64,000 nucleotides of DNA from the human T2T-CHM13v2.0 reference genome, Homo sapiens: the NCBI RefSeq assembly GCF_009914755.1, contig NC_060941.1; one strand, given 5' to 3'. The notes beneath the pieces are model-generated. The model did not search any database and was not told where the DNA came from. It saw only the letters and a list, made by a program, of their open reading frames with translations. Every line of letters begins with the position of its first letter. The first letter of the stretch is position 1. The position numbers and the translations under genes were made by a program. Shown here piece after piece: positions 35,765 through 42,980 of this stretch.

Positions 35765-36665
35765 CTTTGTGGTTTTATCTACGTTTGGTCTTTGATGATG
35801 GTGATGTACAGATGGGTTTTTGGTGTGGATGTCCTTTCTGTTTGTTAGTTTTCCTTGTAACAGACAGGACCCTCAGCTGCAGGTCTGTTGGAGTACTGGG
35901 CCCTGTGAGGTGTCAGTCTGCCCCTGCTGGGGGGTGCCTCCCAGTTAGGCTGCTCGGGGGTCAGGGACCCACTTGAGGAGGCAGTCTGCCCGTTCTCAGA
36001 TCTCCAGCTGCGTGCTGGGAGAACCACTGCTCTCTTCAAAGCTGTCAGACAGGGACATTTAAGTCTGCAGAGGTTACTGCTGTCTTTTTGTTTGTCTGTG
36101 CCCTGCCCCCAGAGGTGGAGCCTACAGAGGCAGGCAGGCCTCCTTGAGCTGTGGTGGGCTCCACCCAGTTCGAGCTTCCCGGCTGCTTTGGTTACCTAAT
36201 CAAGCCTGGGCAATGGCAGGCGCCCCTCCCCCAGCCTCGCTGCCGCCTTGCAGTTTGATCTCAGACTGCTGTGCTAGCAATCAGCGAGACTCCGTGGGCG
36301 TAGGACCCTCCGAGCCAGGTAAGGGATGTAATCTCCTGGTGCGCCGTTTTTTAAGCCTGTCGGAAAAGCGCAGTATTCGGGTGGGAGTGACCCGATTTTC
36401 CAGGTGCCGTCTGTCACCCCTTTCTTTGACTAGGAAAGGGAACTCCCTGACCCCTTGAGCTTCCCGAGTGAGGCAATGCCTCGTCCTGCTTCGGCTCGCG
36501 CACGGTGCGCGCACCCACTGACCTGCGCCCACTGTCTGGCACTCCCTAGTGAGATGAACCCGGTACCTCAGATGGAAATGCAGAAATCACCCGTCTTCTG
36601 CGTCGCTCAACGCTGGGAGCTGTAGACCGGAGCTGTTCCTATTCGGCTATCTTGGCTCCTCCCCC
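35765..36665. promoter_or_regulatory. L1 5'UTR: CpG-rich sense promoter (-) and antisense promoter (+)
   Basis: Complete ~900-nt 5'UTR with dense retained CpGs over 36170-36650. Confidence 0.85.
36213..36458 (+). CDS. LINE-1 ORF0 (antisense, 81 aa; MAGAPPPASLPPCSLISDCCASNQRDSVGVGPSEPG...)
   Basis: GCAATGG Kozak context at 36213 and the recognisable ORF0 N-terminus. Splice donors fall at nt 106 (36318|GT) and nt 191 (36403|GT), the known ORF0 SD1/SD2 positions. Confidence 0.75.
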   Translation: MAGAPPPASLPPCSLISDCCASNQRDSVGVGPSEPGKGCNLLVRRFLSLSEKRSIRVGVTRFSRCRLSPLSLTRKGNSLTP

Positions 36666-36681
36666 TGGCTGTGGGTTTCTT

Positions 36682-39630
36682 ATAGATGGCTTTTATTACA
36701 TTGAGGTATGTCCCTTGTATGCCGATTTTGCTGAGTTTTAATCATAAAGCGATGCTGGATTTTGTCAAATGCTTTTACTGCATCTATTGAGATGACCATG
36801 TGATTTTTGTTTTTAATTCTGTTTATGTGGTGTATCACATTTATTGACATATCACATTTATTGGTATATGTTAAACTATCCTTGCATCCCTGGTATGAAA
36901 CCCCCTTGATTATGGTGAATTATCTTTTTGATATGTTGTTGGATTCAGTTAGCTAGTATTTTGTTAAGGATTTTAGCATCTATGTTCATGAGGGATATCA
37001 GTCTGTAGTTTTCTTTTTTGGTTATGTCCTTTCCTGGTTGTAGTATTAGGGTGATTCTGGCTTCATAGAATGAATTAGGGAGGGTTCCCTCTTTGTCATG
37101 TGGAATAGTGTCAAAAGGGTTGGTACCAATTCTTCTTTGAATGTCTGGTGGAATTCTGCTGTGGATCCATCTGGTCCTAGACTTTTGTTGTTGTTGTTGT
37201 TGGTAATTTAAAAATTACCATTTTAATCTCGCTGCTTGTTATTGGTTTGTTCAGGGTATCTAATTCTTCCTGATTTAAGCTAGGAGGGTTGTATTTTTCC
37301 AGGAATTTATCCATCTCTTCTAGGTTTTTTAGTTTAAATGCAAAGGTGTTCATAGTAGCCTTGAATGATCTTTTGTATTTTTGTGATGTCTGTTGTAATA
37401 TCTCCTGTTTTGTTTCTTATTGAGTTTATTTGGATTTTCTCTCTTCTTTTCTTGGTTAATCTTGCTAACAGCATATCAATTTTATTCATATTTTCAAAGA
37501 ACCAGCTTTGTGTTTCATTTATCTTTTTTATTTTTTTGTTTCAATTTCATTTAGTTCTGCTCTGATCTTGGTTATTTCCTTTTGTCTGCTGGGTTTTGTT
37601 TGTTCTTGTTTCTCTAGTTCCTTGAGGTATGACCTTAGAATGTCAGTTTGTGCTCTTTCAGTCTTTTTGATGTAGGCATTTAAGGCTATGAACTTTCCCC
37701 TTAGCCCCTCCTTTGCTGTATCCCAGAGGTTTTGATAGGTTGTGTCACTATTATTCAGTTTGAAGAACTTTTAAATTTCCATCTTGATTTCATTTTTGAC
37801 TCAATGATCATTTAGGAGCAGGTTATATAATTTCCATGTATTTGCATGGTTCTGAAGGTTCCTTTGGAATGGATTTCCAGTTTTATTCCACTGTGGTCTG
37901 AGAGAGTGCTTGATATAATTTCAATTTTCTTAAATTTATTGAGGCTCATTTTGTGGCCTATTGTATGGTCTGTCTTGGAGAAAGTTCCATGCACTACTGA
38001 ATAGAATGTGTATTCTGCAGTTGTTGGTTGGAATGTTCTGTATATATCTGTTAAGTCCATTTGTTACAAGGTATAGTTTAAATCCATTGTTTCTTTGTTG
38101 ACTTTCTTTCTTGATGACCTGTCTAGTGCTGTCAGTGGAGTATTGAAGTCCCCCACTATTATTGTGTTGCCGTCTATCTCATTTCTTACGTTATTAGTAA
38201 TTATTTTATAAATTTGGGAGCTCCAGTGTTAGGAGCATATATGTTTAGGATTGTGATGTTTTCCTGTTGGACACGGCCTTTTACCATTGTATAATGTCTC
38301 TGTCTTTTTTAACTGCCGTTGCTTTAAAGTTGGTTTTGTCTGATATAAGATAGCTACCCCTGCTTACTTTTGGTGTTCATTTGCATGAAATATCTTTTTC
38401 TACCCCTTTACTTTAAATGTATGCGAGTCCTTATATGTTAGATGAGTCTCCCGAAGGCAGCAGATGGTTGGTTGGTGATCTTATCCATTCTGCTGTTTTG
38501 TATTTTTTTAAGTGGAGCATTTAGACCATTTACATTCAGTGTTAATATTGAGATGTGAAGTACCATTCCATTCCTCATGCTATTTGTTGCCCATGTGCCT
38601 TGGTTTTTTTGTTTTTGCTTTTCAAATTGTATTTTTGTTTTATAGGTCCTGTGAGCTTTATGCTTTAAAGAGGTTCCATTTTGATGTGTTTCCAGGATTT
38701 GATTCAAGATTTAGAGCTCCTTTTAGCAGTTCTTGTAGTGGTGACTTGGTAGTGGTGAATTTTCTCAGCATTTGTTTGTATCCTTCTTTCATATATGACG
38801 CTTATTTTTGCTGGATACAGAATTCTTGGCTGATAATTGTTTTGATGGAGGAGGCTGAAGATATGGCCCCAGTCCTTTCTAGCTTGTAGGGTATCTGCTG
38901 TTAATCCTGATAGGTTTTCCTTTATAGGATACCTGGTATTTTTGTCTCATGTTTTTCTTTATAGGTTACCTGGTGATGTTTTTGCAATGAATTTCCCAGG
39001 TGTTCTTTGAGCTTCTTGTATTTGGATGTCTAGGTTTCTAGCAAGGCCAGGGAAGTTTTCCTTGATTATTCCCCCAAATATGTTTTCCAAACTTTTAGAT
39101 TTCTCTTCTTCCTCAGGAACACCAATTATTCTTAGATTTGGTCGTTTAACATAATCCCAGCCTTCTTGGAGGCTTTGTTCATATTTTCTTATTCTTTTTC
39201 CTTTGTCTTTGTTGGATTGGGTTAAGTCAAAGACCTTGTCTTCGAGCTCTGAATTTCTTTCTTCTACTTGTTCAATTCTATTGCTGAGACTTTCCAGAGC
39301 ATTTTGCATTACTAGAAGTATGTCCAATGTTTCCTGATGTTTTAACTGTTTTTTCTTTATTCTATCTATTTCCTTGAATATTTCTCCCTTCACTTCTTGT
39401 ATTGATTTTTGGATTTCCTTGCATTGGGCTTCACCTTTCTCTGGTGCCTCCCTAATTAGCTTAATAACTAACCTCCTGAATTCTTTTTCAGGTTAATCAG
39501 GGATTTTTTTCTTGGTTTGGATCCATTGCTGGTGAGCTAGTGTGATTTTTTGGGGAGTGTCAAAGAGCCTTGTTTTGTCATATTAATTACCAGAGTTGGT
39601 TTTCTGGTTCCTTCTCATTTGGGTAGGTTA
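36682..39630 (-). mobile_element. Older L1 (L1PB1-like), 5' part: ORF2 N-terminal half and ORF1 remnant
   Basis: ORF2 sequence resumes directly after the TSD. EN fragment 37812-38060; ORF1 fragment 38959-39393 (KRPNLRIIGVPE). Confidence 0.85.
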
Positions 39631-42490: not shown

Positions 42491-42705
42491 AAATGAAAAA
42501 AGCAAAACATTTTGGACCACAGGATCATCACTGGAAGGAGCAAATAGATTCTCAAGGTAATATTTCTTTGACAGAGAGAGCCATCATTGGAACATTTGGT
42601 TATCTGGTATGTTTGAATTAATGTAGAATCACTCGCAGCTCTCGTCTTTACAACACAGGGCAACTGTCAGGGTTAGCGAGGCATTTGTTGTCATTCCCTC
42701 TCTAG

Positions 42706-42980
42706 GTGGAGCCAGGGCGTGTGATGGGAGCACGGGGCCTGAGCTGCAGCATAAGTTTCCTCTGATTTTCAACCTGGAAGACGATACCGCAGAAGCTGTG
42801 CCCCTAGAAAGAGGTGGTGCGGAGTACCAGGCTGTGCTGCCCGAGGTCAGAAAGGTTCTTGCAGACGTCCTCCAAGACATTGCCAACGACAACATCTCCA
42901 GCGCAGATTACACTCAGGACCCTTCAGTAACTCCCTGCTGTAATCCCTACCAAATTGCCTGCCGCTGTCAAGCCGCATAA
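42706..42980 (+). CDS. ARSG: ARSG terminal coding exon ([26 protein letters not shown]...[14 protein letters not shown])
   Basis: ctctctAG acceptor at 42704-42705, phase 1 entry, TAA at 42978-42980. Sulfatase PLIFNLxxD motif and Cys-rich C-terminus. Confidence 0.96.

What the first reader, a model, noticed from the sequence alone, without database searches (positions are those of the whole stretch)
36213..42980. L1 ORF0 splice donor reads CAG|GTAAGG and is in phase with the ARSG terminal exon: predicted ORF0-ARSG fusion
Seen: the L1 is antisense to ARSG, so its antisense promoter fires along the + strand. ORF0 starts at 36213 in strong Kozak context (GCAATGG). The donor at ORF0 nt 106 (36318|36319) reads GAGCCAG|GTAAGG and is phase 1 (35 codons + G). 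The next ARSG acceptor (42706, GT GGA GCC...) is also phase 1. Splicing gives an open 126-aa chimera: [46 protein letters not shown]...CRCQAA*, ending at the ARSG poly(A) site with no NMD trigger. Known: ORF0 SD1/SD2 at nt 106/191 form fusions with downstream exons; as I recall, young L1PA consensus reads GTGCGG/GTGTGG here, a weaker donor. Inference: a locus-specific donor gain made this L1 an efficient alternative first exon, producing a signal-peptide-less, non-catalytic ARSG C-terminal peptide.
Basis: partly seen in the sequence, partly recalled or inferred. Interest (0 to 1): 0.9.

Follow-up and report, generated by a model that had tools for sequence, protein, structure and literature searches.

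The report
Known L1 antisense-promoter exon feeding ARSG and PRKAR1A
A dead L1 retrotransposon in the last intron of ARSG uses its antisense promoter and an unusually strong splice donor to make an alternative first exon that joins to PRKAR1A or to the last ARSG exon; both chimeric RNAs were already catalogued and no fusion protein has been shown.

Summary
All the sequence facts hold: ORF0 ATG at 36213, donor CAG|GTAAGG at 36318|36319, phase-1 acceptor at 42706, and an open 126-aa ORF0-ARSG reading frame.

The promoter and donor are in use. RefSeq annotates 36146-36318 as a first exon, but of PRKAR1A. Criscione et al. 2016 (PMC4908685, Table S1) list 8 ESTs starting in this L1PA3:
- 4 reach PRKAR1A.
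- 2 end inside the ARSG last exon.
- 2 end in downstream ARSG alternative exons.

The ARSG rows carry the flag "previously identified". So the predicted chimeric RNA exists and is already known. Its exact junction and its translation were not seen.

GTAAGG is not a subfamily consensus. It occurs in 3 of 1024 genomic copies, against 507 with GTGCGG. Its modelled U1 pairing is -11.5 kcal/mol, against about -7.2. The other two carriers, both on chr20, are the documented L1-PLCB1 sources, and their ESTs splice exactly at this donor. A tree puts the window copy apart from those two (AU p 0.0024), so the change is private among its nearest relatives.

When spliced to PRKAR1A exon 2, ORF0 is out of frame and forms a 46-codon upstream ORF that overlaps the PRKAR1A start codon (inferred).

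The parts
30645..36665 (-). Full-length but coding-dead L1PA3 element, antisense to ARSG, in the last ARSG intron
   Evidence: The 5' end reads TCTTGGCTCCTCCCCC at 36650-36665. The 3' end with a short T run on the + strand lies near 30645-30660. ORF1 and ORF2 are broken into pieces of 200-401 aa. Criscione Table S1 names it L1PA3 on the - strand.
36095..36225 (+). Cluster of antisense-promoter transcript starts (L1 nt about 571-441)
   Evidence: 8 EST starts at hg19 chr17:66409763-66409893, converted with offset 66373669. The offset rests on two agreeing anchors: the ARSG 3' end at 43331, and the start of EST DA122006 within 1 nt of the RefSeq exon start 36146.
36146..36318 (+). L1-derived alternative first exon, annotated by RefSeq as an exon of a PRKAR1A transcript
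   Evidence: Hub annotation table supplied with the finding; sequence.
36213..36458 (+). ORF0. The first 106 nt (36213-36318) lie in the exon; read unspliced it gives 81 aa and a stop.
   Evidence: Translation. It is the first ATG of the annotated exon.
36316..36324 (+). Splice donor SD1, CAG|GTAAGG (ORF0 nt 106|107)
   Evidence: Matches 8 of 9 positions of CAG|GTAAGT, and modelled U1 duplex is -11.5 kcal/mol. It is the only donor-like site with 7 or more of 9 matches in 36146-36660.
36401..36409 (+). Second ORF0 donor SD2, CAG|GTGCCG (ORF0 nt 191|192)
   Evidence: No transcript from this locus was seen to use it. ESTs from other L1 loci in Table S3 do use the equivalent site.
42686..42705 (+). 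Acceptor and pyrimidine tract of the ARSG terminal exon
   Evidence: 16 of 20 pyrimidines at -23..-4, followed by TAG.
42706..43331 (+). ARSG terminal exon (coding 42706-42980, phase 1; stop TAA at 42978-42980)
   Evidence: Hub annotation. The 90 encoded residues match Pfam Sulfatase_C positions 36-127 of 127, E 7.4e-19. ESTs BG994996 and DA359148 end at about 42914 and 42980.

Best explanation
A roughly 6.0-kb, coding-dead L1PA3 lies antisense in the last intron of ARSG. Its 5'UTR antisense promoter starts transcription on the + strand at about 36095-36225. The transcript's first exon ends at the first ORF0 splice donor (36318). In this copy that donor reads CAG|GTAAGG, close to the consensus, instead of the usual CAG|GTGCGG or GTGTGG.

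The exon is spliced to whichever acceptor downstream is recognised:
- PRKAR1A exon 2, about 100 kb away. This is the RefSeq-annotated form and accounts for 4 of 8 ESTs.
- The ARSG terminal exon at 42706 (2 of 8 ESTs).
- Farther ARSG alternative exons near 51.2 kb and 63.5 kb (1 EST each).

It is an ordinary L1 antisense-promoter chimeric transcript locus that was already catalogued. The strong donor plausibly makes it an unusually productive one.

The ORF0-ARSG frame is open (126 aa) but has no evidence of translation. It would be a cytosolic fragment holding only part of the sulfatase C-terminal subdomain. On PRKAR1A mRNAs, ORF0 would be a 46-codon out-of-frame upstream ORF overlapping the main AUG, which is expected to lower RI-alpha translation from that isoform.

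Shown here: the sequence features, the exon annotation, the EST extents, the rarity of the donor, and use of the same donor in the two sister carriers. Inferred: the exact 36318>42706 junction in the ARSG ESTs, the causal role of donor strength, and all consequences at the protein level.
For: - Sequence and frame.
- RefSeq exon 36146-36318 assigned to PRKAR1A: hub table.
- Criscione 2016 Table S1 (supplement file 3, read) lists 8 ESTs from this L1PA3. DA108801, DA122006, DB153472 and DB141940 end in PRKAR1A. BG994996 and DA359148 end at window positions about 42914 and 42980. BU943355 ends at about 51235 and DA932695 at about 63567 (conversion). The main text names L1-PRKAR1A.
- Donor rarity: GTAAGG 3 of 1024, GTGCGG 507, GTGAGG 13, GTACGG 6. 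No further L1 carriers turned up with looser patterns.
- Modelled U1 duplex: -11.5 kcal/mol against -7.2 and -7.1. The 11 annotated GT donors in the window range from -2.9 to -12.5.
- The two other GTAAGG copies lie 486,176 bp apart on contig C20. That matches the roughly 486.2-kb spacing of the two L1-PLCB1 EST start clusters in hg19.
- All 5 of their ESTs whose sequence is shown carry the copy-diagnostic AGCAACCAGCGAG and splice right after GAGCCAG (diagnostic base seen).
- The window locus (11 rows) plus chr20 copy A (8 rows) give 19 of the 113 L1PA3 rows in Table S1.
- PRKAR1A exon 2 and the upstream-ORF reading.
Against: - The table gives only EST start and end, not the alignment blocks. 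The 36318>42706 junction was therefore not seen directly, and the EST sequences could not be fetched.
- BG994996, DA359148 and BU943355 are absent from the paper's table of predicted Met-initiated peptides of 100 aa or more. They should appear there if they were cleanly spliced in frame and error-free.
- RefSeq lists 43 ARSG transcripts, and none starts in the L1 (hub table).
- Donor strength is not sufficient on its own. One MET EST in Table S3 reads through an equally strong GTGAGG at SD1 and splices at SD2.
- EST counts are confounded by host-gene expression and library choice.
- The hg19-to-window conversion assumes there are no indels between the two anchors.
- Whether the L1-PRKAR1A transcripts have additional exons outside the window before exon 2 was not seen.
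Confidence: 0.8

Rival explanations
1. One reading: a locus-specific donor gain turned this L1 into an efficient first exon whose main meaningful product is a translated 126-aa ORF0-ARSG C-terminal protein without a signal peptide.
For: - The frame is open and the stop lies in the last exon.
- The ORF0 ATG is the first AUG and has G at -3 and +4.
- 2 ESTs end in the ARSG last exon.
- The donor is rare and strong.
- The donor state is private among the nearest L1 relatives.
- ORF0 is reported in reviews to form fusions through its two donors (PMC4859970, passages read).
Against: - No evidence of translation was seen.
- The ARSG-linked ESTs are missing from the table of peptides of 100 aa or more.
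- Of the three ARSG-linked ESTs, one starts 1 nt and one 11 nt upstream of the ATG.
- PRKAR1A, not ARSG, is the only annotated target and the single most frequent one (4 of 8 ESTs).
- The encoded piece is only Sulfatase_C profile positions 36-127 of 127, a truncated subdomain unlikely to fold alone (inference).
Confidence: 0.12
2. The GTAAGG donor makes no difference. L1 antisense exons splice well enough from the ordinary GTGCGG or GTGTGG donor, and this locus is EST-rich only because of its chromatin and host-gene context.
For: - ESTs from other loci splice right after GAGCCAG, and one unspliced EST shows the ordinary GTGTGG at that site.
- A MET EST skips a strong GTGAGG SD1.
- RefSeq marks enhancer-type elements over 35644-36959 (hub table).
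Against: - All 3 of the 3 GTAAGG carriers in the genome are EST-documented chimera sources.
- Two of them supply 19 of 113 L1PA3 rows.
- By comparison, 57 of about 3200 ORF0 loci were reported as fused to a gene exon (Criscione citing Denli).
Confidence: 0.2
3. GTAAGG was inherited from a single source L1 that fathered all three carriers, so nothing about it is specific to this locus.
For: - The three independent insertions share the identical two-base change and the downstream GGGATGTAATCTCCTGG haplotype.
- From the single-step frequencies of 13/1024 and 6/1024, only 0.076 copies are expected to carry the double change. Two independent origins are therefore unlikely by point mutation.
Against: - In a maximum-likelihood tree of 24 copies over 1.8 kb, with the donor columns removed, the window copy groups with three GTGCGG/GTGTGG copies (support 95/92). 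The chr20 pair groups with three others (97/93).
- Several non-CpG sites support the split.
- The AU test rejects holding the three together (lnL difference 52.4, p 0.0024).
Confidence: 0.1

Closest known systems
L1 antisense-promoter chimeric transcripts (Speek 2001, recalled; catalogued by Criscione et al. 2016, PMC4908685)
   Same: [quoted passage not shown] The first exon ends at an ORF0 donor and is spliced to host exons in the sense orientation. This very locus is listed there as L1-PRKAR1A and L1-ARSG.
   Different: SD1 is GTAAGG instead of GTGCGG or GTGTGG (3 of 1024 copies). One promoter feeds two different genes plus read-through ARSG exons.
ORF0 fusion proteins (Denli et al. 2015; the paper is not held and is known here only through PMC4908685 and PMC4859970)
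   Same: The ORF0 AUG, the first 35 codons and the donor at ORF0 nt 106 are present, and the junction to a downstream coding exon is in frame.
   Different: Translation of this fusion was not shown by anything I could see. Whether ARSG is among Denli's 57 fusions could not be checked.
L1-PLCB1 chimeric transcripts from two chr20 L1 copies (Criscione Table S1 and S3)
   Same: They carry the same rare GTAAGG donor, and their ESTs splice exactly after GAGCCAG.
   Different: They sit on a different L1 sub-lineage background and have a different host gene.
L1-MET (named in the background of PMC4908685)
   Same: An intronic young L1 whose antisense promoter makes an alternative transcript of a disease gene.
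   Different: L1-MET starts downstream of the MET start codon (passage). Here the PRKAR1A coding region stays whole and only gains an overlapping upstream ORF (inference).

Membership tests
L1 antisense-promoter chimeric transcript | Transcript start inside the 5'UTR of a young L1 (L1HS to L1PA8), on the antisense strand, within the first 600 nt or so | tested here: met
   EST starts and the RefSeq exon start map to L1 nt about 441-571. The criterion that activity lies within the first 600 bp comes from PMC4908685.
L1 antisense-promoter chimeric transcript | Splicing from an L1-internal donor to an annotated exon of a host gene | tested here: met
   The RefSeq exon ends at 36318 and belongs to a PRKAR1A transcript (hub table). 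Spliced ESTs overlap PRKAR1A and ARSG exons. For ARSG the exact junction is inferred, not seen.
L1 antisense-promoter chimeric transcript | No independent EST showing the L1 piece as an internal exon (exonization) rather than a start | not tested
   This is a filter applied by Criscione et al. (passage). I could not re-run it.
ORF0 fusion protein | ORF0 start codon retained in the transcript with a usable leader | tested here: inconclusive
   5 of 8 EST starts leave 11-118 nt before the ATG, 2 leave 1 nt, and 1 starts 12 nt after it. EST 5' ends may be truncated.
ORF0 fusion protein | In-frame junction from SD1 or SD2 to a coding exon | tested here: met
   106 nt plus 275 nt gives 381 nt, open for 126 codons. 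For PRKAR1A exon 2 the junction is out of frame.
ORF0 fusion protein | Evidence of translation (Ribo-seq, mass spectrometry, tagged construct) | not testable with these tools
   No such data are reachable. The paper's peptide table does not list these ESTs.

The most novel reading that the evidence does not exclude
A two-base change that turns the weak first ORF0 donor into a near-consensus 5' splice site arose or was transferred at least twice among young L1 5'UTRs. Each of its three carriers became a highly EST-supported alternative first exon (ARSG/PRKAR1A, and PLCB1 twice). Donor strength, rather than antisense-promoter activity, would then be the limiting step for host-gene capture by L1. 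At this locus the capture places an overlapping ORF0 upstream ORF on the Carney-complex gene PRKAR1A and yields an in-frame ORF0-ARSG fragment.
Probability: 0.35. Interest if true: 0.5.

Novelty: already known. Interest (0 to 1): 0.25.

Why it matters
As an RNA, this is a catalogued example of a common primate phenomenon, so the finding itself adds little.

Two side results could be useful:
- The rare GTAAGG donor marks exactly the three L1 copies that are among the best EST-supported L1PA3-type chimera sources. That gives a simple, testable handle on why a few of the thousands of L1 antisense promoters capture host genes.
- The PRKAR1A isoform that starts here would carry an ORF0 upstream ORF overlapping the RI-alpha start codon. 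This could matter wherever L1 promoters are demethylated, for example in tumours, because PRKAR1A dosage is disease-relevant. Both effects are inferences.

Tried and rejected
- **Single source for all GTAAGG copies.** This was my working idea. The tree and the AU test rejected it.
- **Other 16-mer hits.** C17:77037648 and C23:140822817 match the 16-mer but are not L1; they are chance matches.
- **Where L1-ARSG was first reported.** Denli 2015, Mätlik 2006 and Speek 2001 are not held. Full-text searches for 'ARSG' with 'LINE-1' and 'chimeric transcript' and for 'ARSG' with 'antisense promoter' found 0 papers. A search for ORF0/ARSG/PLCB1/PRKAR1A gave nothing relevant beyond PMC4908685. PMC8147860 was a false lead: its hit was a plasmid number, 'ORF023752'. 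Supplements of other papers were not searched.
- **Steps not possible here.** MaxEntScan is not available, so a ViennaRNA duplex with the recalled U1 5' end was used instead. The joined chimera was not folded, because joined sequence is not accepted by the structure tools.
- **Target-site duplication.** None was evident by eye and I did not pursue it.
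Full report
**1. The observation**

Reading the window and a script confirm every coordinate.
- ORF0 ATG at 36213, in the context GCAATGG.
- Donor CCGAGCCAG|GTAAGG, with 36318 as the last exon base (ORF0 nt 106, phase 1).
- ARSG terminal-exon acceptor CTCTCTAG|GTGGAGCC, with the exon starting at 42706 (phase 1).
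- Coding part 42706-42980.

Joining the two pieces gives 381 nt, which is 126 codons plus a stop. No other ATG lies upstream in the annotated exon.

**2. The element**

The L1 runs from about 30645 to 36665 on the minus strand. Its ORFs are broken into pieces of 200-401 aa, so it is a dead copy. Criscione et al. 2016 label it L1PA3. In L1 coordinates the ORF0 A of ATG is nt 453, SD1 is nt 348, and the RefSeq exon start is nt 520.

**3. Is the promoter and donor used, and where does it splice?**

The hub annotation lists 36146-36318 as an exon of a PRKAR1A transcript. So both the + strand start and the donor at 36318 are already in RefSeq.

The full-text search led to PMC4908685. I read passages of the main text. 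I also read or searched supplement files 3, 5 and 8. The main text names L1-PRKAR1A among 20 cancer-gene chimeras. Table S1 lists 8 ESTs that start in this L1PA3 at hg19 chr17:66409763-66409893.

I converted hg19 positions to window positions with an offset of 66373669. Two anchors agree on it: the ARSG 3' end (66417000 = 43331), and the DA122006 start, which falls within 1 nt of the RefSeq exon start.

| EST | Source tissue | Ends at or in |
|---|---|---|
| DA108801 | cerebellum | PRKAR1A |
| DA122006 | cerebellum | PRKAR1A |
| DB153472 | thymus | PRKAR1A |
| DB141940 | thymus | PRKAR1A |
| BG994996 | head/neck | about 42914, inside the ARSG terminal exon |
| DA359148 | subthalamic nucleus | about 42980, inside the ARSG terminal exon |
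| BU943355 | pooled | about 51235, in an ARSG alternative exon |
| DA932695 | spleen | about 63567, in the 63398-64218 exon |

Limits of this evidence:
- The table gives only alignment extents, so the 36318>42706 junction is inferred.
- I could not see which earlier source listed ARSG. Denli 2015, Speek 2001 and Mätlik 2006 are not held.
- The three ARSG-linked ESTs are absent from the paper's table of predicted peptides of 100 aa or more. This is weak evidence against a clean in-frame product.

**4. Is GTAAGG special?**

In the window's own genome the pattern GACCCTCCGAGCCAGGTNNGGGAT has 1024 matches (the tool says such counts are lower bounds).

| Donor | Copies of 1024 |
|---|---|
| GTGCGG | 507 |
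| GTGAGG | 13 |
| GTACGG | 6 |
| GTAAGG | 3 |

GTGTGG makes up most of the rest, judging from the first 100 rows listed. Looser patterns added no further L1 carriers.

A ViennaRNA duplex with the recalled U1 5' end gives -11.5 kcal/mol for this donor. GTGCGG gives -7.2 and GTGTGG gives -7.1. The 11 annotated GT donors of ARSG and WIPI1 in the window span -2.9 to -12.5.

**5. The other two carriers**

Both lie on contig C20, 486,176 bp apart, in independent insertion sites. Table S1 lists two L1 sources of L1-PLCB1 ESTs:
- hg19 chr20:8095090-8095177, 8 ESTs, called L1PA3.
- hg19 chr20:8581361-8581380, 3 ESTs, called L1PA2.

These are about 486.2 kb apart. Table S3 shows sequence for five of these ESTs. 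All 5 of 5 carry the chr20-specific AGCAACCAGCGAG and are spliced exactly after GAGCCAG.

So 3 of 3 GTAAGG copies are documented chimera sources. The window locus (11 rows) and chr20 copy A (8 rows) together give 19 of the 113 L1PA3 rows of Table S1. That fits a real effect of donor strength.

There is a counter-example: a MET EST in Table S3 reads through a GTGAGG at SD1 and splices at SD2. EST counts are also confounded by host-gene expression.

**6. Inherited or locus-specific?**

Only 24 copies share the downstream haplotype GGGATGTAATCTCCTGG: GTGCGG 14, GTGTGG 3, GTAAGG 3, GTACGG 2, GTGAGG 1, GTAGGG 1. I fetched 1.8 kb from each and built a maximum-likelihood tree with the two donor columns removed.
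- The window copy groups with three GTGCGG/GTGTGG copies (support 95/92).
- The chr20 pair groups with three other copies (97/93).
- Several non-CpG sites support the split.
- The AU test rejects holding the three GTAAGG copies together (lnL difference 52.4, p 0.0024).

Pairwise divergence among the three carriers is 2.8-3.6%.

The donor state of the window copy is therefore private among its nearest kin. Without ape orthologues I cannot tell a post-insertion change from inheritance through an otherwise unsampled source.

From the single-step frequencies, only 0.076 double-changed copies are expected among 1024. Two separate backgrounds carrying the same double change is unexplained. Possible causes are a tandem mutation, conversion between copies, or recombination between L1 lineages.

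**7. Protein-level consequences (inference)**

The ARSG piece is 90 residues and matches Pfam Sulfatase_C profile positions 36-127 of 127. It is a truncated C-terminal subdomain. By the exon layout it lacks the signal peptide and the catalytic N-terminal part. The stop lies in the last exon, so the two-exon form should escape nonsense-mediated decay (established rule).

The EST starts scatter around the ORF0 ATG. The leaders are 118, 99, 66, 56, 11, 1 and 1 nt long, and one EST starts 12 nt downstream of the ATG. Part of the transcripts would therefore not initiate at ORF0.

For PRKAR1A, I located exon 2 in the genome. It starts 6 nt before the ATG. If the L1 exon is spliced directly to it, the ORF0 frame runs 46 codons. 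That frame passes the main ATG out of frame and stops at exon-2 nt 35. This makes it an overlapping upstream ORF, expected to reduce RI-alpha translation from this isoform. Intermediate exons outside the window were not excluded.

**8. Verdict**

But the object is an already catalogued L1 antisense-promoter chimeric locus. Its annotated product is a PRKAR1A 5' variant, and the ORF0-ARSG protein remains hypothetical. The modest new points are three. The near-consensus donor is confined to three copies. All three copies capture host exons. The donor also recurs on two L1 backgrounds, which is unexplained.

Noticed in passing
window 36146-36318 joined to L009:4248-4432 (PRKAR1A exon 2, outside the window): Spliced directly to PRKAR1A exon 2, ORF0 is out of frame. 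It gives a 46-codon upstream ORF that overlaps the RI-alpha start codon and stops at exon-2 nt 35.
   Followed up: partly
L002 (G000:C20:8156514) and L003 (G000:C20:8642690): These are the only other L1 copies with the GTAAGG donor. They correspond to the two documented L1-PLCB1 chimera sources, and 5 of 5 ESTs with visible sequence splice exactly at this donor.
   Followed up: yes
24 L1 copies, L001-L003 and L010-L030: The same two-base donor change sits on two different L1 sub-lineage backgrounds (AU p 0.0024). Only 0.076 such copies are expected from the single-step frequencies, and the cause is unexplained.
   Followed up: partly
window 43021-43031 (+) and 56154-56164 (-): Two annotated exon ends use GC rather than GT donors. 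One is the ARSG alternative internal exon 42706-43023 (TAG|GCAAGT). The other is the WIPI1 exon whose low end is at 56162 (CAG|GCAAGT). The ARSG stop codon lies 43 nt upstream of that GC donor.
   Followed up: no
window 43798-64000 (-): L1-started transcripts that reach PRKAR1A or the 51-kb and 63-kb ARSG exons run antisense across the whole WIPI1 gene and MIR635. Any interference this causes was not examined.
   Followed up: no
window 36666-37041 (+): The L1PA3 5' end abuts sequence that by eye looks like an older L1 ORF2 fragment in the + orientation. NCBI masks 30634-37041 as a single stretch. I did not check this with a tool.
   Followed up: no
G000:C7:118039251 (+): An L1 copy with GTGAGG at SD1 lies where MET is expected (the position is recalled, not checked). 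A MET EST in Table S3 of PMC4908685 keeps GTGAGG unspliced and uses SD2.
   Followed up: no
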